Position numbers and translations under genes: made by a program | Notes under the pieces: generated by a model | What the model saw: the letters and a program-made list of their open reading frames with translations, nothing else | Database searches by the model: none | Told to the model about the DNA's origin: nothing | In this document: piece by piece, positions 1-18,844 of the stretch | Layout of the letters: every line of letters begins with the position of its first letter | Position numbering within the stretch: position 1 is the stretch's first letter | Virus record (IMG/VR): IMGVR_UViG_3300045988_023617 | Strand: one strand, 5' to 3' | DNA length: 18,844 nucleotides | Source: a virus

Positions 1-216
1 GGAGGGGAGGGGCCCCAGCCACTAGCCTTTTTCCACAACCGCTCTGTTATGTGTTTGTGTTTTCTTTTGCGTTGTGTGTTCTTGCTTGTATTGTTGGTGG
101 TTGTGGTTGTGGTGGGGTTTTTTTGTGTTGTTTTTTTGTGTGTTTTGGGTGTGTTGTTTTTGGTGTGTGGTATGATGTGAGTATCAACCGATAGGGAAAG
201 GAAAAAAATAAAATGA
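1..216. repeat. Left inverted terminal repeat (216 bp), perfect reverse complement of 18629..18844
   Basis: I compared the two ends base by base. They are identical from position 1 through 216 and diverge at 217 (a on the left, t in the right-end complement). The repeat reaches the very first and last base of the window, as expected for true ends of a protein-primed linear genome. Confidence 0.97.
168..176 (+). promoter_or_regulatory. Extended -10 promoter (TGGTATGAT) inside the left ITR, firing inward
   Basis: TGn + TATGAT at 168-176, directly after the G/T tract and about 37 nt upstream of the ATG at 213. It is the same motif class as the TGnTATAAT boxes at other gene junctions. No clear -35. 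Confidence 0.5.
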
Positions 217-377
217 ACACCGTTGTTTCGTTTGATTGGTGGAGCAAGTCCATTACAGTGGCATTCGTTGATTACAATACCGTGCACTATTTCGATGGGC
301 AACGCTATTACCGTCAAGGGCGCAAAGAGTCGTATGCGCCGCGAACTGTGCATGGCAACGGGCGTGGAATTGTCTAA
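213..377 (+). CDS. Left terminal early protein, 54 aa, unknown function; start codon lies inside the ITR
   Basis: Too short for the >=60-aa ORF track. ATG at 213-215 follows GGAAAGGA (196-203). Translation is MNTVVSFDWWSKSITVAFVDYNTVHYFDGQRYYRQGRKESYAPRTVHGNGRGIV, with TAA at 375-377. The mirror ATG at the right end opens a clear 85-aa ORF, which supports use of this initiation site. Confidence 0.5.
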   Translation: MNTVVSFDWWSKSITVAFVDYNTVHYFDGQRYYRQGRKESYAPRTVHGNGRGIV

Positions 378-437
378 TTTGAAGTATTGGCGGACGGACG
401 GTTCCGTTGATTACTATCGTGCGGATAGGGAGGGTGA

Positions 438-671
438 ATGATTGTGAGAGAGCATATGTATATCGTAGCTAGTTGGCCTTGTGTTGACTATGTCCAAGTG
501 GCAACTCCGACTCGTAATTACTATGTAGTCCATGCCGCAGACTCTTATGAGGCTTTGCGTAGGATTCTTCAGCTTGAGGGAGTTATACTTTACGCTCATG
601 TTAAGCGGCTCACGTCCTGCCGTAACGTTGGGGCCGGATATGTGGCTTATTATTATAGTGTGGTGTATTGA
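438..671 (+). CDS. Hypothetical early protein, 77 aa
   Basis: ORF-track entry. ATG is preceded by AGGGAGGG (427-434). No recognisable motif. Confidence 0.4.
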   Translation: MIVREHMYIVASWPCVDYVQVATPTRNYYVVHAADSYEALRRILQLEGVILYAHVKRLTSCRNVGAGYVAYYYSVVY

Positions 672-672
672 T

Positions 673-741
673 ATGTTTTCTTCGGTTCTTGTTATTTGCG
701 TATGCATCCTTGGTATTGTTGCCGTTTTTGGTATTATGTGA
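673..741 (+). CDS. Possible 22-aa hydrophobic micropeptide (MFSSVLVICVCILGIVAVFGIM)
   Basis: ATG at 673 lies 1 nt after the TGA of the preceding ORF. The whole product is about the length of one transmembrane helix. This is the in-frame tail of track ORF 532..741. No SD of its own, so translation would have to be coupled. Confidence 0.2.
   Translation: MFSSVLVICVCILGIVAVFGIM
729..737 (+). promoter_or_regulatory. Candidate extended -10 box (TGGTATTAT)
   Basis: TGn + TATTAT, 25 nt upstream of the ATG at 762 and just before its GGAAAGGA SD. Confidence 0.3.
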
Positions 742-761
742 TTGGAAAGGATAATTAAAAA

Positions 762-1007
762 ATGTCTTATGGTGACATTCGTGTCGGGAGGTTCAACAGC
801 TCTCATATGGGGGGTGACGTGCGTATCGAATACTGCACACACCAACATCTTTTTTATCTGACATATAACGTGGAGTTCCATACGCCAGTCGGCTTGACTG
901 AGGGCGTCGCGCGGTGCGGTTATGACCCTACGAAAGCCAATGAAATGCGTTCTATGGTGTTGGATGCTATGGATATTGCGGCCAAACCACTGGAGGATAG
1001 GGATTAG
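762..1007 (+). CDS. Hypothetical early protein, 81 aa
   Basis: ORF-track entry. SD-like GGAAAGGA (744-751) has the same sequence and similar spacing as the sites in the ITR and before the SSB gene. Confidence 0.5.
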   Translation: MSYGDIRVGRFNSSHMGGDVRIEYCTHQHLFYLTYNVEFHTPVGLTEGVARCGYDPTKANEMRSMVLDAMDIAAKPLEDRD

Positions 1008-1008
1008 C

Positions 1009-1212
1009 GTGTACTTTCGTGGTTGGATTCATTCATGGACGTGCGGCGATTGTCCCGACGCTGATACGTATTGGCGTTTGCGTGCGTTTTGGGCAGGTGC
1101 GAAGTGTAAGGGTGACTCTTTCACGCCGCCGAGACGGTGTCCGAGTACCGACTTGTGGTTTGATATGTGGTGGTATGGTGCAGAGTCCAGTAATGAGGAA
1201 TTGGAGCTTTAA
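1009..1212 (+). CDS. Possible Trp/Cys-rich small protein, 67 aa (GTG start)
   Basis: In-frame part of track ORF 922..1212. GTG at 1009 lies 2 nt after the TAG of the upstream gene, downstream of GGAGGA (992-997) and AGGGA (999-1003). Stop at 1210-1212 is 2 nt before the next ATG. The competing ORF 1019..1240 would overlap the next gene. Confidence 0.25.
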   Translation: MYFRGWIHSWTCGDCPDADTYWRLRAFWAGAKCKGDSFTPPRRCPSTDLWFDMWWYGAESSNEELEL

Positions 1213-1214
1213 TT

Positions 1215-1745
1215 ATGAAATTGAAGAATTTGAATTTTGATAAAAGCGAAAAACGTACGAATTGGTTTGATGACGGCGTGCTGGATGATGACCGTGTGCG
1301 CCGTGTCATTCGGGGGCGTCGCCGTAATCTGCACTTGCGTGAATACAATCGAGGTGAGGGTGATTGGGAAACATTATGCCGTAGTATAGCACTGCTCAAG
1401 AACTTTTATAAGCCTCAAGGGTCGCAAGTGGCGTTCGCCGACGGGGTGGAACATGCGGCAAACGTTTGCCTATCATTGTCCTCCCACACATCTTGCATCG
1501 GAGCGTTGGCGCGAACTCAGGATATCGAAATGCTGGGCGGCGTCATTTATGCCCCGGCTATGGTGGCGTGGTGCGCCGTCTGTCATGTCAAGGGCGCGTC
1601 ATGCTATGAAATGTGCAAAGTCTGGGATGGCAATGAATTTGCTCAGACTGTCGTTAAAATCGCGTGTCGTTGTTTTGACAATCTGACAGATGTGCGGTAT
1701 ACTGATGAAGACATTGCAAGAATGTCTCAACAGCAGCAACAATAA
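1215..1745 (+). CDS. Hypothetical early protein, 176 aa, Cys-rich with poly-Q C-terminus
   Basis: Longest ORF in the left arm. GGAG lies 8 nt upstream of the ATG. No motif I recognise. Confidence 0.6.
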   Translation: MKLKNLNFDKSEKRTNWFDDGVLDDDRVRRVIRGRRRNLHLREYNRGEGDWETLCRSIALLKNFYKPQGSQVAFADGVEHAANVCLSLSSHTSCIGALARTQDIEMLGGVIYAPAMVAWCAVCHVKGASCYEMCKVWDGNEFAQTVVKIACRCFDNLTDVRYTDEDIARMSQQQQQ

Positions 1746-1757
1746 AGATAAGGCGGT

Positions 1758-2078
1758 ATGATTATGGCATACATTAAGAGAGCCAAGCATTACAGTATTG
1801 TGCGCGGCATTACGCGCGGTGAAAACGGTGAACTCGTTGATGCCGAGGTGGTCGTGAATGGCGCGTGCCGTACTGCTGACATGGCTATGAAGAAAGCCCG
1901 CAAAATCAACAAGGACATGCTACCCATGTCCGCCGAGTATCATGCGCAGGCAACGCGCATGGATGAGGCGATTTATTGGGCTAATTGCGAATTTGGAGAT
2001 GATACCATTGTTGACTATCCGGGGCCGGTTAACGGCAACGTGGTTGAAGATGATATTATCACCGAGGAAAATAATTAA
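1758..2078 (+). CDS. Small protein with acidic C-terminal tail; candidate phi29 p6-like dsDNA-binding (origin-organising) protein
   Basis: 106 aa (104 if it starts at ATG 1764, which has better spacing to AGGCGG). It lies immediately upstream of the p5-like SSB, as gene 6 does in phi29. Size is similar to p6 (~104 aa). The tail VEDDIITEENN is acidic. There is a loose resemblance between G-x-x-T-x-x-x-A-x-K-K-A-R-K and the p6 stretch GNLTMEQAQWRMKRK. Confidence 0.35.
   Translation: MIMAYIKRAKHYSIVRGITRGENGELVDAEVVVNGACRTADMAMKKARKINKDMLPMSAEYHAQATRMDEAIYWANCEFGDDTIVDYPGPVNGNVVEDDIITEENN
2051..2059 (+). promoter_or_regulatory. Candidate extended -10 box (TGATATTAT) upstream of the SSB gene
   Basis: TGn + TATTAT, 47 nt upstream of ATG 2106, inside the 3' end of the preceding gene. 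Confidence 0.3.
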
Positions 2079-3624: not shown

Positions 3625-5085
3625 ATGCGAGAGCGTCGAACGGCGGCAACAGACGGCGCAACATTATTGACGGATGACGGTATAACGCCATTGACGGCGA
3701 ACGCCGTCGTTCGCCTTACGATGCTTGACCATCATACGCGCGTATGGTGCGCACATGGATGGCAGGATATCAAGCTAATAGCGGCCGAGCTGTTGAGACG
3801 CCTCCCCCTGCAATCGAATCCGGCCAAGGATGGAGTTTATGGCACTTTTAATATTCGCGGCCACTTCTACAGTTTCCGCGTGCGCATGGGCGGTATCACC
3901 GTGGATTTTCTGGACGTGCGCAATGTCACACGCGACGACGGGCTGAATGTCTCACGTGAAACGTTTGGCGGTGCGGATGACTTGGAAACCACGTGGAACA
4001 TCGCGCAGGAATGCGACGCCCTGAGGCTCAAGGGCACGACCATAGCGTCTATGGCGATGGGCGATTATATCGGGGGAGATTACGCCGGATTCAAACAGCA
4101 CTTTCCGCCATTGGATAAAGCGGAATATCATCGGATGCGCCCCGCATACTATGGGGCGATAGTGTACAGCAGGCCGGGGGAATATCGGGATTGCAAGAGC
4201 TGGGACGTGAACAGCCTCTACCCGAGCGTCATGCGCGACTTTGCCATGCCCGTAGGCGCGCCGATATGGTATGAAGGAAAATATCATGATGATGCTGATT
4301 ATCCGCTGCATATCGATGTTATCTCGTTCGATGCTCGATTGAAGCCGGGGAAAACGGCTACGCTCACGAATATCCTACCCGTATGGGGGTACGAGGGCGA
4401 ACGTATGGACAGCACGTTAGGCGTCGTCACCATGCCAGTGGTCGACGTGGATTGGCAGACCTTGACGGAAAACTATGATGTCCATGCATGGGATTATATA
4501 GGCGGCTGGAAATTCCGTAAATCGCATGGACTCTATTACAACTACGTTGACAAATGGTTCCACGTGAAACAAACCGCAACCGGAGAGCGTCGGCAGATGG
4601 CGAAACTATTGCTTAATTCGTTGGTGGGGAAATTCGGAGCATCGCTTTATCGGCCTATGCTGCACCCGAAACCCTCTGGCGATGGCGGCGTGGATTTTAC
4701 CGTGGATAAACCCGAGTCAACCAACTCACTCGCATGGCTACCCACCGCCGCCTATGTCAACGCCTACGGGAGGCAAATACTGTCACGCGCGATGAATGCG
4801 AACGCCGACCGCGTGCTTTACGCCGATACGGACGGCATGATACTGGACGGACTGGATGCGCCCGCAGATATCGAAATGGACGATAAGAAACTGGGCGCGT
4901 GGAAAAACGACCACACCTATGAAAAACTCCGCATCCTCGGCAATCGCAAATACTGCGGCGCAGAGGAAGACGGCGGCACGGTGATGCGGTTGAGTGGCGT
5001 GCATCGAGCTGCCCCTATCCCCTACGACGACTTTTTGCCGAGGTCACGCCATGTCAACGATGACGGCTGTTTTTTTGTGCTATAA
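3625..5085 (+). CDS. Protein-primed family-B DNA polymerase (phi29 p2-like), compact 486 aa
   Basis: WDVNSLYPSVM (motif A, nt 4201-4233). MPVGAPIWYEGKYHDDADYPLHI matches phi29 LPYGEPIVFEGKYVWDEDYPLHI. AKLLLNSLVGKF (motif B, from about nt 4600). YADTDG (motif C, nt 4819-4836). KKLGAWKNDHTYEKLRILGNRKY (KxY). SD AAGGA lies upstream of the ATG. Confidence 0.95.
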   Translation: MRERRTAATDGATLLTDDGITPLTANAVVRLTMLDHHTRVWCAHGWQDIKLIAAELLRRLPLQSNPAKDGVYGTFNIRGHFYSFRVRMGGITVDFLDVRNVTRDDGLNVSRETFGGADDLETTWNIAQECDALRLKGTTIASMAMGDYIGGDYAGFKQHFPPLDKAEYHRMRPAYYGAIVYSRPGEYRDCKSWDVNSLYPSVMRDFAMPVGAPIWYEGKYHDDADYPLHIDVISFDARLKPGKTATLTNILPVWGYEGERMDSTLGVVTMPVVDVDWQTLTENYDVHAWDYIGGWKFRKSHGLYYNYVDKWFHVKQTATGERRQMAKLLLNSLVGKFGASLYRPMLHPKPSGDGGVDFTVDKPESTNSLAWLPTAAYVNAYGRQILSRAMNANADRVLYADTDGMILDGLDAPADIEMDDKKLGAWKNDHTYEKLRILGNRKYCGAEEDGGTVMRLSGVHRAAPIPYDDFLPRSRHVNDDGCFFVL

Positions 5086-14660: not shown

Positions 14661-14676
14661 TGGACTATTTTAAGCG

Positions 14677-14709
14677 ATAGCCATGCTGCTATAATAGCAG
14701 CATGGCTAT
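14677..14709 (+). promoter_or_regulatory. Perfect 33-nt palindrome containing an extended -10 box (TGCTATAAT, 14687-14695) and the ATG of the tail-lysin gene
   Basis: ATAGCCATGCTGCTAT-A-ATAGCAGCATGGCTAT has 16-nt arms with no mismatch. TATAAT (14690-14695) straddles the centre. ATG 14702 is in the 3' arm, exactly 6 nt after the hexamer. TACTTTTG follows the palindrome. Confidence 0.6.
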
Positions 14710-15940
14710 TACTTTTGATGATTGGGTTAAGCAGACACAAGACCGATATTGGGATATGGATGGCGCATACGGTGCGCAGTGCTGGGACCTATGGGCCAAG
14801 TATAGTATGGACATGTATGGTCTGAGCGTTCAAGACTGCATCACCCCCACCGGCTATGCCGAGGGATGCTATACGAGGTTCCCCTACACCGCCGCACTCG
14901 GCAACGTGTATGAGAAAATGGACTCCAATTATACGCCAGTTAAGGGTGACGTGGTTTTTTGGACATTCGGCGGTCAAATCTACACTGGCTCCCATGTCGC
15001 AATCGTATGGGGTGGCGTCACTGGCGATAATATCGATGTTCTAACACAAAATCCCACTCCGGCAGTTCATCAAACCTTGCCACTCTTGCGCGGTTCGCAG
15101 CTGCTCGGCTACCTGCATCCCAAGAACTTGCAGCCGGGCGGCACGACGCCGGATAATCCGAACGGCGGCAATCCCACGGGTGGGGATAATCAAGGTTCGG
15201 GCGTGTCTGGCGGTTCGTCCGCATGGATACAGCAACAGGGCGATAATTTGATATACCATTACGGCTCGCGTAGTGGCGGCATGTCGGCGTTGTTCGTCAA
15301 GACTACCGCGCAGAATTGGATATATCGCGGCGCGTCCGGCACGGGTGCGCCGGATGGAGACGGCGGGCAATCGTCGCCCAGTGTAGGCGACGGCGAGTCA
15401 AGTTATGCGCTTTATGTGGTGGGCACGGTTGAATCATCATTGCGATGGGATGCGGTAGAGCCTAATCGCCAAGGCATCGGCATTGCGCAATGGAGTTTCG
15501 GCCGCCGCCTGCAAGTACTGAACGCGATGAAGACGGTTGACGCTGATGGATACCGGACGTTCGCCGCCGCCGCGCCGGACATTGTCGCGCTTATGGACTC
15601 GGGCGGCACGTTTGACAGGGCAATGACCGGTAGTGAGGTTGCTGCGTTCCAGACGTGGGCACGTCGTCCTCAGTCTCATGCGGGTCAACGCGCTCAGTTC
15701 GCTACGGATTACGAGGGCTATCCGCAAAAATACGACGACGCGAAGATGCAAATACTGTGGACTTGCGCATATCATCAATCTCCCGCAGGTGCGTTGAACG
15801 TGCCGACCGCGACCACGCTTGCGGGGTTGCGTGACAACATTCTAGCCACATCCCCGTTCGGACCATATGGCACGCGATATCAGGCCGCCTATAGCTTGCT
15901 GAACGTCTGGGATGGGAAGAGTGCGCCGCCAAACTTTTAA
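14702..15940 (+). CDS. Tail-associated peptidoglycan hydrolase: N-terminal CHAP endopeptidase/amidase + C-terminal phi29 gp13-type lysozyme-like domain
   Basis: 412 aa. CHAP signature: DMDGAYGAQCWDL (Cys27), GSHVAIVWGG (His98), VLTQNP (Asn117). A Gly/Asn/Pro linker covers aa ~145-175. C-terminal VVGTVESSLRWDAVEPNRQGIGIAQWS resembles gp13 GNMQSESTINPGLW...GFGLVQWT, with a putative catalytic Glu in GTVES. It occupies the phi29 gene 13 position, after the appendage gene. Confidence 0.8.
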   Translation: MAITFDDWVKQTQDRYWDMDGAYGAQCWDLWAKYSMDMYGLSVQDCITPTGYAEGCYTRFPYTAALGNVYEKMDSNYTPVKGDVVFWTFGGQIYTGSHVAIVWGGVTGDNIDVLTQNPTPAVHQTLPLLRGSQLLGYLHPKNLQPGGTTPDNPNGGNPTGGDNQGSGVSGGSSAWIQQQGDNLIYHYGSRSGGMSALFVKTTAQNWIYRGASGTGAPDGDGGQSSPSVGDGESSYALYVVGTVESSLRWDAVEPNRQGIGIAQWSFGRRLQVLNAMKTVDADGYRTFAAAAPDIVALMDSGGTFDRAMTGSEVAAFQTWARRPQSHAGQRAQFATDYEGYPQKYDDAKMQILWTCAYHQSPAGALNVPTATTLAGLRDNILATSPFGPYGTRYQAAYSLLNVWDGKSAPPNF

Positions 15941-15961: not shown

Positions 15962-17065
15962 ATGGGTGACATTAACGTGCTTAATGAGAATGATTATTAT
16001 GACTATGGTAGAGCATTGTCTTATCATAGTCCTTGGATGTTCGTAATCGGAGCACGTGGCCTCGGGAAAACCTATGGCGCTAAAAAATTGGTTATCGGTG
16101 ATTGGATTAAGAAACGCTGGCAATTCATTTATCTACGCCGGACAGCAGAGGAACAGAAGAATAAGGGCACATGGTTTGCAGACGTCGCGGAGCAATACCC
16201 GGAACTGGAATTTAGAGTGTCCGGGAATCAGGCCGAATGTCACTGGCTGGATGACAGGGACGCAACCGCAGACAAGCATGGCAAGAGCCGTGCGACATGG
16301 CATGTCATGGGGTATTTTATCGCCCTATCGCAAGCTGGACAGGTGAAATCGGTTGCCTACCCTAAAGTACGAACTATTATCTTCGACGAAATATTCCCCG
16401 ACAATATGCGCTATCTCGGCGGAGAAGTTACGGCGCTTGAGGAATTTTACAACACGGTTGACCGTTGGAACGATAGGGTTCGCGTTATCATGTGCAGCAA
16501 CGCCGTAACGTTGGCTAACCCGTATTTCAGCGCGTTTAATATCAACCTAAAACCGCAGTTGGATAATCACACACAATATCAGCGATATTGTGACGGGTTC
16601 ATCATGGTGGAATTGGCCGATTACGGCGGATTCAGTGCCAAGGTTGCCACATCTAAATTCGGACAGTTTTTACGCAGGTATGACGAAAATTATGCGAATT
16701 ATGCAATCAATAATAATTTTAGAGATAATGCCAATGCTCTCATTAGTGATTTTAATAACGCCGGTTATGCGTTCACATTAAGAACCACTGAATACGGCGT
16801 TTTCAACGTTTATCAACAACTAAGCGATACCGATGAAGTATTGTATCTCATCACAAAAAAACAACCTAAAATCACAAGGGATTTTACATTTGACTATCGA
16901 CTGGTCGATAACGATTGTATGATGCTCAAACGTTCGGACGACATGACCCAGAAAATATTAAACGCCTATCGCGTCGGTAGATTACGGTTCGAGACTCCGC
17001 AAATTAAGGCGGAATTCAGTATGATTCTTGGCGGCTTGTTGCAACAATCAGGCATAAGAAAGTGA
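15962..17065 (+). CDS. DNA encapsidation (packaging) ATPase, phi29 gp16-like
   Basis: The track ORF starts at GTG 15944; ATG 15962 gives 367 aa. LSYHSPWMFVIGARGLGKTYGAKK resembles gp16 LSYDRILNFVIGARGIGKSYAMK (Walker A). QFIYLRRT resembles QFIYVRRY. TIIFDEIF resembles TIVFDEFI (Walker B). RVIMCSNAVTLANPYF resembles RCICLSNAVSVVNPYF. RVGRLRFE resembles MNGYLRFD. Confidence 0.93.
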   Translation: MGDINVLNENDYYDYGRALSYHSPWMFVIGARGLGKTYGAKKLVIGDWIKKRWQFIYLRRTAEEQKNKGTWFADVAEQYPELEFRVSGNQAECHWLDDRDATADKHGKSRATWHVMGYFIALSQAGQVKSVAYPKVRTIIFDEIFPDNMRYLGGEVTALEEFYNTVDRWNDRVRVIMCSNAVTLANPYFSAFNINLKPQLDNHTQYQRYCDGFIMVELADYGGFSAKVATSKFGQFLRRYDENYANYAINNNFRDNANALISDFNNAGYAFTLRTTEYGVFNVYQQLSDTDEVLYLITKKQPKITRDFTFDYRLVDNDCMMLKRSDDMTQKILNAYRVGRLRFETPQIKAEFSMILGGLLQQSGIRK

Positions 17066-17073
17066 GGATAATA

Positions 17074-17436
17074 ATGACGCAAGCAAACATATGGTGTACC
17101 ATTGCAGTCATATTTTTTATTAGCATCGACTACGTTACTGGCGTGGTAAAAGCAATCATGCGTGATAATCTGAGTTCGCGAAAGATGCGGGAGGGACTAG
17201 GGCACAAGTTCGCCTATCTTATGCTTGTGCTGGTGGCATGGTTCATCGACGAAGTGAACCGGCATATCAATTTAGGACTGCCAATGTCCGTATTTGTCTG
17301 CACGGTCGGCGGAGTATGTCTAATCGAACTCACGTCAATCCTCGAAAACGTCACCGAAATCAATCCCGAATTAAAAAACGCGCCATTCATGCAGATTTTC
17401 GCTCAATCCACAAATGACAAGCATAAGGCGGAATGA
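17074..17436 (+). CDS. Holin (phage_holin_4 / TcdE-like family), ~3 TM segments
   Basis: The track ORF starts at GTG 17062. ATG 17074 has GAGGA 5 nt upstream and gives 120 aa. ISIDYVTGVVKAIMRDNLSSRKMREGLGHKFAYLMLVLVA is the characteristic family pattern. Hydrophobic segments lie at aa ~6-25, 50-65 and 75-97. It sits directly upstream of the endolysin and overlaps it. Confidence 0.75.
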   Translation: MTQANIWCTIAVIFFISIDYVTGVVKAIMRDNLSSRKMREGLGHKFAYLMLVLVAWFIDEVNRHINLGLPMSVFVCTVGGVCLIELTSILENVTEINPELKNAPFMQIFAQSTNDKHKAE

Positions 17437-18320
17437 TGGACGGCATAATATGGATAGGCTCGCCAAACCATTACAATGGACGCAATGGATACGCCGTGAC
17501 ACACATAACGCTGCATATCATGGTCGGCCATCTCGCCGGAACGGATAGCGTATTTTTGAGCGCCAATTCGCAGGCAAGTGCGCACTATGGTATCGGCGCG
17601 GACGGTGCAATTCATCAATACGTGAGCGAAAACGACGGCAGCTACAGTGACGCCAATTTCACGTCAAACAATTCGACAATCAGCATAGAACACGAAGGGG
17701 GTATGAACGGAATACCTTGTACGCAAGCGTGCATGAACGCTTCCGCTCGACTCTGTGCCGACATAGCACGCCGATATGGTTGGACGCACCTGCGGCACGA
17801 TGGACTCAACGGCAACATATGGTTACACCGCGAAGTGCCGGGCACCGACCATTACGGCTGTCCCGACCTAGCGCCAAACGGACTCGACATAAATTATGTT
17901 ATCAACAAAGCAAATCAAATTCTAGAAGGAGCCGACGAAATGGCATTGACCGACGAAGATATTATGAGATTCTGGACACACAAACTCCCAAACGGACGCG
18001 CAGCACGCGACATTATCAGCGACGCAACCAGCGACGTAATCCGAATGCACGACACGGGACTTGTCGGCGGACAATGGATGCACAAACTTCCAAACGGCCG
18101 ATACGCCCGCGATATTGTAAGCGACGCAACCAGCGACGTAATCCGTATCCACGACACCATGCTACCAGCATTAACCGCACAAGTAACGGCGCTCACGGCA
18201 GCAGTAAAAGCATTATCCGAGTCGATAGGCGCCAATCCCGACACCATTGCCAAGACCGTGCAGGACGCGGTAAAAGCAAAACTGGACAGTCTGAAAATCA
18301 CCGTAACAGACGAACAGTAG
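17433..18320 (+). CDS. Endolysin: N-acetylmuramoyl-L-alanine amidase (Amidase_2/PGRP fold) with repeat-containing C-terminal region
   Basis: 295 aa. ATGATG overlaps the holin stop. Motifs: HITLHIMVG, SAHYGIGADGAIHQYV, TISIEHEG, and LHREVPGTDHYGCPD (a Zn-ligand His/Cys pattern like T7 lysozyme). The C-terminus carries two 34-aa repeats plus an Ala/Leu/Lys-rich helical tail. Confidence 0.85.
   Translation: MMDGIIWIGSPNHYNGRNGYAVTHITLHIMVGHLAGTDSVFLSANSQASAHYGIGADGAIHQYVSENDGSYSDANFTSNNSTISIEHEGGMNGIPCTQACMNASARLCADIARRYGWTHLRHDGLNGNIWLHREVPGTDHYGCPDLAPNGLDINYVINKANQILEGADEMALTDEDIMRFWTHKLPNGRAARDIISDATSDVIRMHDTGLVGGQWMHKLPNGRYARDIVSDATSDVIRIHDTMLPALTAQVTALTAAVKALSESIGANPDTIAKTVQDAVKAKLDSLKITVTDEQ
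17979..18159 (+). repeat. Tandem ~78-bp direct repeat with 102-bp period inside the endolysin gene (two 34-aa protein repeats)
   Basis: HKLPNGRAARDIISDATSDVIRMHDT and HKLPNGRYARDIVSDATSDVIRIHDT. The copies start at 17979 and 18081 and share an identical block, agcgacgcaaccagcgacgtaatccg. Confidence 0.85.
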
Positions 18321-18331
18321 CGCGACATAAG

Positions 18332-18370
18332 AAAGCCCCCTAGGTTATTGCCTAGGGGCTTTACTTTTTA
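18332..18370. terminator. Bidirectional intrinsic terminator between the convergent endolysin and right-terminal genes
   Basis: AAAGCCCCCTAGG (18332-18344) pairs with CCTAGGGGCTTT (18351-18362): 12 bp with one bulged C and loop TTATTG. It is followed by ACTTTTTA on the + strand. On the - strand, the stem's terminal A-T pairs and the flanking sequence give TTTCTTAT. Confidence 0.8.
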
Positions 18371-18374
18371 TACG

Positions 18375-18632
18375 TCAATCGCCGTTGTCAACCGAGACAA
18401 CATACGTACGGCACGGGCGACCCTTCTTAGACAAACACCGCCTGGTTTCAACGTAATCATAATCGTAGCTCAAAGAAAGTTCGATAACCGCTGCAAGAGC
18501 GGACTCGAACGTAATAACACTATCATCAAAACGACCATTATCACGAACGGGAGTCTTGAGCACGCCTTCAATACAAACTTCGTACCAATTGTCCTCTTCA
18601 AGTTCGATAACATAAGCGTTAAAATTAATCAT
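18375..18632 (-). CDS. Right terminal early protein, 85 aa, acidic, unknown function; start codon lies inside the ITR
   Basis: The only credible minus-strand gene. The ATG (complement of 18630-18632) and its SD are ITR sequence. It ends 5 nt before the bidirectional terminator region. Confidence 0.65.
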   Translation of the reverse strand: MINFNAYVIELEEDNWYEVCIEGVLKTPVRDNGRFDDSVITFESALAAVIELSLSYDYDYVETRRCLSKKGRPCRTYVVSVDNGD

Positions 18633-18844
18633 TTTATTTTTTTCCTTTCCCTATCGGTTGATACTCACATCATACCACACACCAAAAACAACACACCCAA
18701 AACACACAAAAAAACAACACAAAAAAACCCCACCACAACCACAACCACCAACAATACAAGCAAGAACACACAACGCAAAAGAAAACACAAACACATAACA
18801 GAGCGGTTGTGGAAAAAGGCTAGTGGCTGGGGCCCCTCCCCTCC
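18629..18844. repeat. Right inverted terminal repeat (216 bp)
   Basis: Exact reverse complement of 1..216. It contains the mirror copies of the extended -10 box, the SD-like GGAAAGG and the ATG that opens ORF 18375..18632 (-). Confidence 0.97.
18669..18677 (-). promoter_or_regulatory. Extended -10 promoter (TGGTATGAT on the minus strand) inside the right ITR, firing inward
   Basis: Mirror copy of 168-176, with the same distance to the ATG of the right terminal gene. Confidence 0.5.

What the first reader, a model, noticed from the sequence alone, without database searches (positions are those of the whole stretch)
51..170. A ~120-nt tract made almost only of G and T inside each ITR
Positions 51-170 contain one A (position 90) and four C (64, 70, 81, 85); every other base is G or T, in irregular TG/TTG/GGT runs with no clean period. 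Because the tract is in the ITR, the 5'-ended (TP-linked) strand is GT-only at both ends and the 3' template strand is CA-only. TG/CA steps are the most deformable dinucleotide steps. The tract could therefore be the binding and bending platform for a p6-like origin-organising protein (candidate gene 1758..2078). It could also be an easily unwound origin flank, or a strand-specific SSB loading site on the displaced strand. It also sits directly upstream of the ITR promoter, in UP-element-like position. I know of no described phage origin with such a strand-pure tract.
Basis: partly seen in the sequence, partly recalled or inferred. Interest (0 to 1): 0.68.

Follow-up and report, generated by a model that had tools for sequence, protein, structure and literature searches.

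The report
G+T-only spacer in phage terminal repeats
The G+T-only stretch in each terminal repeat of this small phi29-like (probably Bifidobacterium) phage is real, and it combines a regular ladder of T-runs of the kind a p6-type origin-organising protein would bind with the sharpest point of a strand bias that covers the last 1.5-3 kb of both genome ends.

Summary
Positions 51-170 are T71 G44 C4 A1, inside a perfect 216-bp inverted terminal repeat (ITR), and this is the purest G+T window in the genome (6.4 SD above its mean).

The tract is the spacer between a conserved terminal origin block (1-57) and a conserved extended -10 early promoter (148-185).

Thirty distinct variants from related phage contigs keep the composition (mean A 5, C 13, G 25, T 57 %). 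In them, T-runs fall on a ladder with a period of about 12.8 bp, counted from the genome end. Spacer lengths change in steps of about 25 bp. In phi29, p6 binds one monomer per 12 bp and one dimer per 24 bp.

The 106-aa candidate protein has no sequence similarity to p6. Its predicted fold does match p6-type proteins of phi29-like phages, and the gene sits directly upstream of the SSB gene.

The strand purity is not special to the tract. In this clade and in cultured Bifidobacterium and Actinomyces phages, the 5'-ended strand is G+T-rich at synonymous sites for 1.5-3 kb at both ends, whichever way the genes point. That pattern fits C-to-T and A-to-G change on the displaced strand. phi29 and Cp-1 do not show it.

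Protein binding and the cause of the bias are both inferred, not shown.

The parts
1..216 (+). Left inverted terminal repeat. It runs through the ATG of the first gene (213-215). About 4 terminal A's are missing from the window.
   Evidence: Perfect 216-bp match with the reverse complement of the right end. Relatives start AAAAGGAGGGG, two directly after an adapter.
18629..18844 (-). Right inverted terminal repeat, the mirror copy of the left one.
1..57 (+). Conserved terminal (origin) block, GGAGGGGAGGGGCCCCAGC.ACTAGCCTTTTTCCACAAC.GCTCTGTT.TGTGTTT. Its last bases overlap the start of the tract.
   Evidence: Mean pairwise identity is 0.77-0.90 across 30 variants for the aligned part, 18-57; bases 1-17 are conserved by eye in the end sequences.
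28..32 (+). Conserved T5 in the terminal block. It is the zero point of the T-run ladder.
   Evidence: T-run centres measured from it give Rayleigh R 0.75-0.76 at period 12.8-13.0, with phase about 0.
51..170 (+). The G+T tract (T71 G44 C4 A1). It is the spacer between the origin block and the promoter.
   Evidence: Homologous A-poor, T-rich spacers occur in 30 distinct variants.
18675..18794 (-). Right-end copy of the tract (C+A on the + strand).
   Evidence: the top A+C 120-nt window is at 18674-18676.
68..87 (+). Semi-conserved block inside the tract (..TGTTCTGTGTTTTTYATT.. in relatives).
   Evidence: Pairwise identity 0.71-0.78, against about 0.41 expected from composition alone.
88..147 (+). 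Variable, indel-prone core of the tract. In this sub-lineage it includes a (GTGGTT)n microsatellite-like run at 97-113.
   Evidence: Identity 0.5-0.67, with block indels of about 25-50 nt. TRF output.
117..161 (+). Part of the tract with a visible ~13-nt T-run period (T7 at 118-124, T7 at 131-137, T4 at 143-146, T5 at 157-161).
   Evidence: TRF reports a 13-nt unit x3.5. T-run indicator gives z 4.0 at 13.5 nt. Ladder positions.
148..185 (+). Conserved promoter block. The extended -10 TGTGgTATGAT lies at 166-176. There is no recognisable -35.
   Evidence: Identity 0.77-0.87 in 30 variants. The same block opens the GenBank record of B. dentium phage BD811P2. The consensus scanner finds no -35/-10 pair here, so the promoter is inferred.
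193..215 (+). Ribosome-binding-like AGGGAAAGGA (193-202) and the ATG (213-215) of the first early gene (213-377). The right ITR drives 18632-18375 in the same way.
   Evidence: Read directly from the sequence.
1758..2078 (+). 106-aa conserved protein. It is p6-like by predicted fold and gene position, and is the candidate binder of the tract.
   Evidence: 95 homologues at 59-97 % identity, the full-length ones at 60-97 %. HMM hits the syntenic BadAztec1 gp18 (1.4e-17) and BD811P2 gp05 (1.1e-9). AF2 model has pLDDT 68.5. Foldseek hits to 'Histone-like Protein p6' and 'Double-strand binding protein' of phi29-like phages. No Pfam p6 or BLASTP match.
   Evidence: Pfam PF17427 at 4.4e-15. PHROG SSB families.
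3625..5085 (+). Protein-primed family-B DNA polymerase.
   Evidence: Pfam DNA_pol_B_2 at 1.1e-33.
1..1750 (+). Left terminal zone where the + (5'-ended) strand is G+T-rich.
   Evidence: G+T falls from 0.64 to 0.53 in sliding windows. 4-fold-site G+T is 0.59-0.69 in the five genes here.
17060..18844 (-). Right terminal zone where the - (5'-ended) strand is G+T-rich. It includes the + strand lysin gene 17433-18320.
   Evidence: 4-fold G+T on the + strand is 0.43, 0.29 and 0.24 for the last three genes.

Best explanation
The tract has two layers.

Layer 1, what the tract is. It is the spacer of the terminal repeat. It lies between the conserved terminal origin block (1-57) and a conserved inward-reading early promoter of the extended -10 type (148-185). 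It carries a ladder of T-runs with a period of about 12.8 bp, counted from a conserved T5 near the genome end. Between the T-runs lie flexible TG/GT steps. The spacer changes length in steps of about 25 bp, which is two ladder units. This is the sequence pattern expected for a cooperative array of a small minor-groove-binding, DNA-wrapping protein of the phi29 p6 type. The best candidate for that protein is the conserved 106-aa product of 1758-2078. By analogy with phi29, the complex would help open the origin for terminal-protein-primed initiation. It would also shut off the adjacent early promoter, as p6 does at phi29 promoter C2.

Layer 2, why it is written almost only in G and T. The tract sits at the peak of a strand bias centred on the two genome ends. 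Across this clade the 5'-ended strand, which is the displaced strand, is enriched in T and G and depleted in C and A over the last 1.5-3 kb of both ends. The bias is present at synonymous sites of genes on either strand. The most economical cause is strand-specific C-to-T and A-to-G change on the strand that is single-stranded during replication. That change would be fixed most completely where only spacing and T-run phase are constrained. In this sub-lineage, slippage of G+T-only motifs sharpened it further.

What is shown: composition, architecture, conservation, the ladder in relatives, the fold match, and the end-centred synonymous-site bias.

What is inferred: protein binding, origin and promoter effects, and the mutational cause of the bias.
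For: Architecture. An alignment of 30 distinct variants shows conserved blocks at 18-57, 68-87 and 148-185, and a variable core with block indels.

Composition. It is kept across variants (A 4.7, C 12.9, G 25.4, T 57.1 %; G+T 71-96 %) while sequence drifts.

Ladder.
- The T-run indicator peaks at 13.0 nt, with mean z 6.7 over 30 variants.
- T-run centres fall at about 12, 27, 37, 50, 62, 73, 87, 100, 112, 124, 138, 164, 177, 190, 203 and 215 nt upstream of the -10.
- The ladder is reproduced in 14 further variants, with R 0.39 at 12.3 nt.
- In the long variants the best period in the 8-20 nt range is 12.75-13.0, with P 0.000-0.04 against dinucleotide shuffles.
- Measured from the terminal T5, R is 0.75-0.76 at 12.8-13.0 nt.
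- T5-to-(-10) distances cluster at 141-143, 165-169, 215-218, 240-243 and 264-267 nt.
- TRF finds 25-nt units in L035 and 13/26-nt units in the window.

phi29 precedent. One p6 monomer binds per 12 bp and one dimer per 24 bp. p6 nucleates within about 46-125 bp of the ends, recognises a bendability pattern rather than a sequence, and represses the inward promoter C2 near the right end (PMC4974454; annotation).

Candidate protein. It is conserved and sits just upstream of the SSB gene. The same family occupies the same position in BadAztec1 and BD811P2. Its fold matches p6-type proteins.

End-centred bias.
- Window 4-fold G+T on the + strand is 0.59-0.69 at the left, 0.46-0.57 in the middle, and 0.43, 0.29 and 0.24 at the right. 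The 0.29 value belongs to a + strand gene.
- Seventeen full genomes show the same profile.
- The lysin gene has 4-fold G+T of 0.05-0.37 near podovirus ends, against 0.29-0.43 in 25-64 kb phages. The change is almost entirely G to A on the + strand.
- The bias persists at the right end of L104, where I could not recognise an ITR promoter or a minus-strand gene in the sequence.
- Cultured phages BD811P2, Av-1 and BadAztec1 show the same sign.
Against: - No binding data exist.
- The candidate has no sequence similarity to p6. Its model is of only moderate confidence (pLDDT 68.5).
- In the window alone the period is not significant with the plain T indicator (P 0.11).
- A ladder can be a relic of 25-nt tandem duplication, and the variants are related, so pooled statistics are inflated.
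- BadAztec1 has a homologue of the protein but shows no 12.8-nt period in its ITR.
- On the mutational layer, single-strand exposure time should fall linearly to mid-genome. The bias is instead steep and confined to 1.5-3 kb.
- phi29 and Cp-1 use the same replication mode and lack the bias.
- The window's tract (96 % G+T) is far purer than neighbouring 4-fold sites (59-69 %).
- Across genomes, tract purity does not track the lysin bias. A tract-specific force must therefore act as well.
Confidence: 0.5

Rival explanations
1. The tract is a pure by-product. It is a weakly constrained spacer whose composition was driven to G+T by strand-specific deamination of the displaced strand plus slippage of simple motifs. 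The T-run ladder is only a fossil of 25-nt tandem duplications, and nothing binds it specifically.
For: The bias extends into the synonymous sites of neighbouring genes on both strands. The core of the tract is variable and indel-prone. Microsatellite-like G+T runs occur in the purest variants. TRF finds true 25-nt tandem copies in relatives.
Against: T-run lengths vary, yet total spacer lengths stay within 2-4 nt of discrete classes about 25 nt apart. The ladder also stays in phase with the genome end over more than 200 nt in diverged variants. Neutral decay should blur both. Blocks 68-87 and 148-170 are conserved. The window's tract is much purer than adjacent 4-fold sites.
Confidence: 0.2
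2. The tract is promoter architecture. Either it is an extended UP-like or curved upstream region that boosts an ITR promoter lacking a -35, or it is an operator array for a sequence-specific early regulator.
For: The tract abuts a conserved extended -10 promoter with no -35. T-runs lie 12-50 nt upstream of the -10 hexamer. A subset of relatives carries 2-3 copies of TAAGCGCGTAG at 25-nt spacing.
Against: The ladder period of 12.8 bp is off the helical repeat of about 10.5 bp that curvature or UP-type activation needs. The ladder is anchored to the genome end (R 0.76) better than to the -10 (R 0.41). It extends 120-260 nt upstream, far beyond UP range. The AAGCGCGTAG motif is absent from the window.
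Confidence: 0.15
3. The tract works at the single-strand level. The G+T-only displaced strand and the C+A-only template cannot fold, which would favour SSB loading, panhandle formation or run-off of the incoming polymerase.
For: Both strands fold to 0 kcal/mol. The phage encodes a phi29-type SSB. The bias follows the displaced strand at both ends.
Against: Lack of structure follows automatically from a two-letter non-complementary alphabet, so it is not independent evidence. It does not explain the ~12.8-bp phase or the 25-bp length steps. Most relatives carry 10-18 % C and some A and still keep the architecture. phi29 and Cp-1 manage without it.
Confidence: 0.08
4. The tract is an easily melted origin flank, that is, a DNA-unwinding element.
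For: The tract is 40 % G+C against 53 % for the genome. Its nearest-neighbour stability is 1.4 SD below the genome mean.
Against: It ranks only at the 9th percentile. Several coding windows, for example near 646, are less stable. The terminal 40 bp that must open first are the most stable part of the ITR, at 65 % G+C.
Confidence: 0.05

Closest known systems
phi29 p6 nucleoprotein complex at the replication origins (p6 recognition regions; repression of promoter C2)
   Same: Both lie in the first ~50-170 bp of a TP-capped linear genome, next to an inward-reading early promoter. Both show a ~12-13-bp repeat with a ~24-25-bp double unit. Both rely on flexible and rigid steps rather than a sequence motif. 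In both, a small (~100 aa) protein with an acidic tail is encoded directly upstream of the SSB gene.
   Different: The candidate protein has no detectable sequence homology to p6. The period is ~12.8 bp rather than 12. The pattern can be read directly from the sequence as a ladder of T-runs on one strand. It lies in a 216-bp ITR, whereas phi29 has a 6-bp ITR. The DNA is strand-pure, which phi29 ends are not.
Strand compositional asymmetry of strand-displacement replicons (the G+T-rich heavy strand of vertebrate mitochondrial DNA; leading-strand G+T excess in bacteria)
   Same: In both cases G+T excess lies on the strand exposed as single-stranded DNA. It is seen at synonymous sites, is independent of gene orientation, and reflects mainly transitions (C to T, A to G).
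   Different: Here the bias is confined to the terminal 1.5-3 kb instead of grading across the replicon. It is absent from phi29 and Cp-1, which use the same replication mode. It reaches about 95 % at 4-fold sites in some relatives.
Long ITRs of Streptococcus phage Cp-1 (236 bp) and Bifidobacterium phage BadAztec1 (259 bp)
   Same: These are long terminal repeats that contain the origin plus early promoter signals in a phi29-like podovirus.
   Different: The 5' strand of the Cp-1 ITR is A+C-rich (G+T 37-38 %), which is the opposite bias. BadAztec1 is only mildly G+T-rich (62 %) and has no 12.8-nt period.
Iteron or tandem-repeat origin arrays
   Same: Both have repeated units (25-nt copies in relatives) and variation in unit number.
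   Different: Here the units are degenerate in sequence. What is conserved is T-run phase and composition, not a recognisable binding motif.

Membership tests
phi29 p6-type origin platform | The phage encodes a p6 protein (Pfam PF17548, Histone-like Protein p6). | tested here: not met
   No PF17548 hit at E<=10, whereas phi29 p6 scores 1.7e-54 in the same run. No BLASTP alignment to phi29 p6. The family HMM does not hit phi29 p6.
phi29 p6-type origin platform | A small dsDNA-binding protein with a p6-like fold, encoded next to the SSB gene in the replication operon. | tested here: met
   The AF2 model (pLDDT 68.5) gives Foldseek BFVD hits, at E 9e-4 to 1e-2 and TM 0.5-0.6, to ~90-100-aa proteins of phi29-like phages named 'Histone-like Protein p6', 'DsDNA binding protein' and 'Double-strand binding protein'. 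The gene lies directly upstream of the SSB gene. Model confidence is moderate.
phi29 p6-type origin platform | The recognition region lies within about 50-125 bp of the genome end and overlaps an early promoter that it represses. | tested here: met
   The position is met. The tract spans 51-170, and the extended -10 lies at 166-176 reading inward. phi29 coordinates come from PMC4974454 and the C2 annotation. Repression itself cannot be tested here.
phi29 p6-type origin platform | A periodic pattern of ~12 bp (monomer) and ~24 bp (dimer) in DNA bendability. | tested here: met
   In relatives, the T-run ladder has a period of 12.75-13.0 nt, with P<=0.04 in 5 of 10 representatives. It is anchored at the genome end (R 0.76), and spacer length changes in steps of ~25 nt. 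In the window alone the result is inconclusive (P 0.11; TRF 13-nt x3.5).
phi29 p6-type origin platform | Cooperative protein binding with a periodic footprint, and stimulation of TP-primed initiation. | not testable with these tools
   This needs EMSA, footprinting and in vitro replication.
Replication-linked strand asymmetry (displaced-strand deamination) | The bias is present at synonymous sites and is independent of transcription direction. | tested here: met
   The + strand lysin gene near the right end has 4-fold G+T of 0.29 in the window and 0.05-0.37 in relatives. Inward-reading genes at both ends have coding-strand values of 0.59-0.76. L104, where I could not recognise a right-end promoter in the sequence, still shows the bias.
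Replication-linked strand asymmetry (displaced-strand deamination) | The sign is mirror-symmetric about the genome centre, with the 5'-ended strand G+T-rich at both ends. | tested here: met
   Seen in 17 full genomes and in BD811P2, Av-1 and BadAztec1.
Replication-linked strand asymmetry (displaced-strand deamination) | The magnitude falls in proportion to single-strand exposure time, that is, roughly linearly to mid-genome. | tested here: not met
   The bias is steep and confined to about 1.5-3 kb. TP and polymerase genes at 2.6-5 kb have 4-fold G+T of 0.46-0.53.
Replication-linked strand asymmetry (displaced-strand deamination) | The bias is shared by other phages with the same replication mode. 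| tested here: inconclusive
   It is present in actinobacterial phi29-like phages (BD811P2, Av-1, weakly BadAztec1). It is absent in phi29 and Cp-1, and not separable from a general C bias in Mendel.
UP element | An A/T-rich segment at about -40 to -60 upstream of a sigma-70 promoter with -35 and -10 hexamers. | tested here: inconclusive
   T-runs lie about 26-50 nt upstream of the -10 hexamer. No -35 is recognisable and the scanner calls no promoter. The tract also extends to about -120, with a period off the helical repeat.
DNA-unwinding element | A local minimum of duplex stability next to the origin. | tested here: not met
   The tract averages -1.344 kcal per step against a genome value of -1.459 +/- 0.082, which is the 9th percentile. 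Less stable windows exist elsewhere.
Structured RNA or coding gene | A match to an RNA family, or a real ORF. | tested here: not met
   There is no Rfam match in the ITR at E<=1. ORFs 49-180, 51-194 and 47-253(-) exist only because a strand without A, or without T, cannot contain a stop codon (direct reasoning).

The most novel reading that the evidence does not exclude
The kilobase-scale G+T excess on the 5'-ended strands, which peaks in the ITR tract and reaches about 95 % at synonymous sites in some relatives, is selected rather than merely mutational. On this reading it is a strand-identity signal for a linear, protein-capped genome, read by the phage's own machinery: the p6-like wrapper on duplex DNA, the SSB on the displaced strand, or the packaging motor that tracks one strand. 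The ITR tract would then be the first origin nucleoprotein lattice that can be read directly from sequence.
Probability: 0.12. Interest if true: 0.85.

Novelty: new variant of a known kind. Interest (0 to 1): 0.62.

Why it matters
If the ladder is a p6-type array, these Bifidobacterium phages offer an origin whose nucleoprotein geometry can be read from sequence. The register, the unit size and the anchoring to the DNA end are all visible. Natural length variants differing by about one dimer unit provide a ready-made test set for a model that in phi29 rests on footprints of DNA without a visible motif.

It would also extend the p6 function to a protein family with no sequence similarity to p6. 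[quoted passage not shown]

Separately, the end-centred synonymous-site bias is a strong strand-specific signal. I found no description of it in the papers I searched. It could report how long, and where, the displaced strand is exposed in protein-primed replication. It could bias gene calling and phylogenies for these phages. It also explains why published genomes of cultured relatives are truncated inside the tract.

Tried and rejected
- **Near-identical cultured phage.** Megablast of the whole window against 50,697 phage records found nothing.
- **Sequence-level p6 homology.** Pfam at E<=10, BLASTP, and a family HMM against six-frame ORFs of seven phages were all negative for phi29 p6.
- **RNA gene or pRNA.** There is no Rfam match in the ITR. 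The only hit in the window is a chance viral cis-element at 14673-14713.
- **Consensus -35/-10 promoter in the ITR.** The scanner found none, so the promoter call rests on a conserved extended -10 read by eye.
- **Coding reading of the tract.** The ORFs there are artefacts of a stop-free alphabet, with no ribosome-binding site.
- **Secondary structure.** Both strands fold to 0 kcal/mol. This follows trivially from the alphabet and is not evidence for any model.
- **DNA-unwinding element.** The tract is not an outstanding stability minimum.
- **Transcription-coupled bias from the ITR promoters.** This fits the left end but fails for the + strand lysin gene, and for a relative (L104) in which I could not recognise a right-end promoter.
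- **Simple linear model of single-strand exposure.** The profile is too steep for it.
- **G-quadruplex in 95-116 (GGTGGTTGTGGTTGTGGTGGGG).** Considered by eye only. Only two-tetrad runs are possible, and the motif is absent from most relatives. Not pursued.
- **The same ladder in independent lineages.** BadAztec1 is negative, Av-1 is weak at 12.0 nt, and the phi29 right end is weak at 12.5-13.5 nt.
- **Literature.** I found no paper on skew in terminal-protein phages or on these ITRs in the held library.
Full report
**What the window is.** The 18,844-bp window is an essentially complete genome of a phi29-like podovirus. It encodes a phi29-type SSB (2106-2543), a protein-primed family-B polymerase (3625-5085), a phi29-type major capsid protein, a tail knob, a connector and a glycerophosphodiester phosphodiesterase (GDPD)-domain protein. 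Its two ends are a perfect 216-bp inverted repeat that runs through the ATG of the first gene at each end. No cultured phage is close at the DNA level. The capsid protein is 36-42 % identical to those of Bifidobacterium phages. The lysin has 48-55 % relatives in two Bifidobacterium genomes and in one metagenome bin labelled Acidaminococcaceae. The ITR promoter block is nearly identical to the first bases of the B. dentium phage BD811P2 record. The host is therefore probably a Bifidobacterium.

**The observation.** This is the top G+T 120-nt window of the genome, 6.4 SD above the genome's own windows. The mirror copy lies at 18675-18794. Relatives begin AAAAGGAGGGGAGGGG, and in two contigs this directly follows a ligated adapter. 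The window therefore lacks about four terminal A's.

**Relatives.** A polymerase query returned 80 IMG/VR loci with 85-94 % amino-acid identity. A lysin query returned the right ends, and sixteen full genomes could be stitched from overlapping loci. Their ITRs measure 99-470 bp as assembled. Thirty distinct versions of the spacer share one layout:
- a conserved terminal block (window 18-57, pairwise identity 0.77-0.90);
- a semi-conserved block (68-87, identity 0.71-0.78);
- a variable core with block indels (88-147, identity 0.5-0.67, against about 0.41 expected from composition);
- a conserved promoter block (148-185, identity 0.77-0.87) containing TGTGgTATGAT.

The consensus scanner finds no -35/-10 pair there. 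The promoter is therefore an inference from conservation and an extended -10.

**Composition.** Composition is conserved better than sequence. The mean is A 4.7, C 12.9, G 25.4, T 57.1 %, with G+T ranging from 71 to 96 %. The window, L019 and L008 are the extreme, nearly C-free cases.

**A ladder of T-runs.**
- Autocorrelation peaks at lags 25-27, 12 and 51 in most variants.
- TRF finds 25-nt units in L035, and 13- and 26-nt units in the window.
- The Fourier power of the T-run indicator peaks at 13.0 nt, with mean z 6.7. For the window alone z is 4.0 at 13.5 nt.
- T-run centres upstream of the -10 fall at about 12, 27, 37, 50, 62, 73, 87, 100, 112, 124, 138, 164, 177, 190, 203 and 215 nt. Rayleigh R is 0.41 at 12.5 nt and at most 0.13 at 10-11 nt.
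- Fourteen further variants repeat this, with R 0.39 at 12.3 nt.
- Against 1,000 dinucleotide shuffles, the long variants have their best period (8-20 nt scanned) at 12.75-13.0 nt, with P 0.000-0.04. The window alone is not significant with the plain T indicator (P 0.11).
- Measured from the conserved T5 at 28-32, the ladder is sharper still, with R 0.75-0.76 at 12.8-13.0 nt and phase near zero.
- T5-to-(-10) distances fall into classes of 141-143, 165-169, 215-218, 240-243 and 264-267 nt, with a single variant at 182.

The variants are related, so the pooled statistics overstate independence. The per-sequence tests and the tight length classes, which hold despite variable T-run lengths, are the stronger arguments.

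**Comparison with p6.** In phi29, p6 binds one dimer per 24 bp and one monomer per 12 bp. It wraps DNA into a superhelix of about 63 bp per turn. It nucleates at 46-68 and 62-125 bp from the ends by recognising bendability, and it represses the inward promoter C2 near the right end (PMC4974454). By simple arithmetic, five ladder units of about 12.6-12.8 bp make 63-64 bp. It has family members at the same position, just upstream of the SSB gene, in BadAztec1 and BD811P2. It has no Pfam p6, BLASTP or HMM similarity to phi29 p6. Its AlphaFold model (pLDDT 68.5) has a beta-beta-alpha-beta-alpha core and a disordered acidic tail. That model retrieves ~90-100-aa proteins of phi29-like phages from BFVD, a library of predicted viral protein structures. 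Some are named 'Histone-like Protein p6', 'DsDNA binding protein' and 'Double-strand binding protein' (E 9e-4 to 1e-2, TM 0.5-0.6). The candidate therefore works like p6 by fold and position, but fails membership of the p6 sequence family.

**The purity is not private to the tract.**
- In the window, G+T on the + strand falls from 0.64 to 0.48 over the first 2 kb and drops to 0.40 in the last 1.5 kb.
- At 4-fold sites it is 0.59-0.69 in the five leftmost genes and 0.46-0.57 in the middle. It is 0.43, 0.29 and 0.24 in the last three genes, and the 0.29 value belongs to the + strand lysin gene.
- Seventeen genomes share this profile.
- The lysin gene has 4-fold G+T of 0.05-0.37 in ~18-kb podovirus contigs (for example A57 C67 G3 T4). 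In 25-64-kb phages it is 0.29-0.43 (typically A13 C77 G53 T3). The difference is almost entirely G to A on the + strand, which is C to T on the 5'-ended strand.
- In some relatives the 5'-ended strand is 76-82 % G+T for 1 kb and above 60 % for 3 kb. The bias persists at the right end of L104, where I could not recognise an ITR promoter or a minus-strand gene.
- Cultured BD811P2 shows 0.88, 0.76, 0.64 and 0.84 at the left, and 0.23, 0.19, 0.13 and 0.15 at the right. Av-1 has the same sign, and BadAztec1 weakly so.
- phi29 and Cp-1 do not show it.

**What the bias means.** It follows the ends, not the direction of transcription. In protein-primed replication the 5'-ended strand is the one displaced as single-stranded DNA, which is established knowledge for phi29. 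Strand-specific deamination is therefore the most economical cause. Three facts do not fit a simple version of that idea:
- the steep 1.5-3-kb extent;
- the absence of the bias in phi29 and Cp-1;
- the lack of correlation between tract purity and neighbouring synonymous bias.

**Other readings tested.**
- Both strands fold to 0 kcal/mol, which is automatic for a two-letter non-complementary alphabet.
- The tract is only at the 9th percentile of duplex stability.
- No Rfam family matches the ITR.
- ORFs in the tract exist only because A-less or T-less strands have no stop codons.
- BadAztec1's ITR has no 12.8-nt period. Av-1 and the right end of phi29 show weak 12-13.5-nt signals.
- I found no paper in the held library describing such a tract or such a bias.

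**Verdict.** The tract is best read as the origin-to-promoter spacer of the ITR. It carries an end-anchored ladder of T-runs spaced about 12.8 bp apart, for a p6-type wrapping protein. It is written in a G+T alphabet because it sits at the peak of an end-centred strand bias that also reshapes neighbouring genes. Binding, the effects on origin and promoter, and the cause of the bias all remain inferences.

Noticed in passing
window 1 and 18844 (both termini); L001 1-50, L055 1-45: The window lacks about four terminal A's. Relatives start AAAAGGAGGGGAGGGG, and in L001 and L055 this directly follows a TruSeq adapter, so the physical 5' end is probably AAAAGGAGG. A run of A's at the end is what a sliding-back initiation of the phi29 type needs.
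   Followed up: partly
L162 (NC_073478.1, Bifidobacterium phage BD811P2) 1-55 and its right end: The GenBank record of this cultured phage begins TTTTTTGTGTGGTATGATGTAGTTATCAAC, which is inside the last bases of the tract. The deposited 'complete genome' therefore seems to lack the terminal origin block and most of the ITR at both ends.
   Followed up: partly
L035 206-254; also L058, L062, L001, L125 (spacer region): A subset of relatives carries 2-3 copies of TAAGCGCGTAG (GCGC core) spaced 25 nt apart within the spacer. In other variants the same slots read GAGCGTGTTG or GGGTGTGTTG. This could be an operator for a sequence-specific regulator that the window's lineage has lost.
   Followed up: partly
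window 17433-18320; L092-L160; L168-L171: The lysin gene is shared (46-68 % identity) with 21-64-kb phage or prophage contigs and with Bifidobacterium moukalabense and B. vansinderenii genomes. This points to a Bifidobacterium host and to gene exchange between unrelated phage types.
   Followed up: partly
window 213-1745 compared with L001-L080 left ends: The first genes after the ITR differ between otherwise close relatives, so this region is mosaic. Some assembled ITRs reach 415-470 bp and so duplicate a whole first gene at both ends (contigs 005917, 002365, 006903).
   Followed up: partly
L162 1754-2197 (BD811P2 SSB); L163 1407-1874 (Mendel SSB): The SSB gene runs against the local trend. 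Its 4-fold sites are strongly C-rich (G+T 0.26-0.28), even though in BD811P2 it sits next to genes at 0.64-0.88. This may reflect expression-linked codon bias.
   Followed up: no
window, whole: Rfam finds no packaging RNA (pRNA) or any other RNA family, although phi29-like packaging normally uses a pRNA and Av-1 has one annotated. If this phage has a pRNA, it is too diverged for the Rfam model.
   Followed up: no
window about 18332-18362: A G+C-rich hairpin flanked by A and T runs (AAAGCCCCCTAGG..CCTAGGGGCTTT) lies between the convergent lysin gene and the last minus-strand gene. It looks like a bidirectional terminator.
   Followed up: no
L065 about 240-480; L099 right end about 240-400: Some relatives carry a second copy of the ITR promoter block (GTGGTATTATGTAGTTATCAGCC or GTGGTATACTGTAGTTACAAACC) a few hundred nt further in, after an extra small gene. 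These would act as tandem early promoters.
   Followed up: no
window 47-253 (-), 49-180 (+), 51-194 (+): The ORF finder lists 43-68-aa ORFs across the tract on both strands. They are artefacts. A strand without A, or its complement without T, cannot contain TAA, TAG or TGA.
   Followed up: yes
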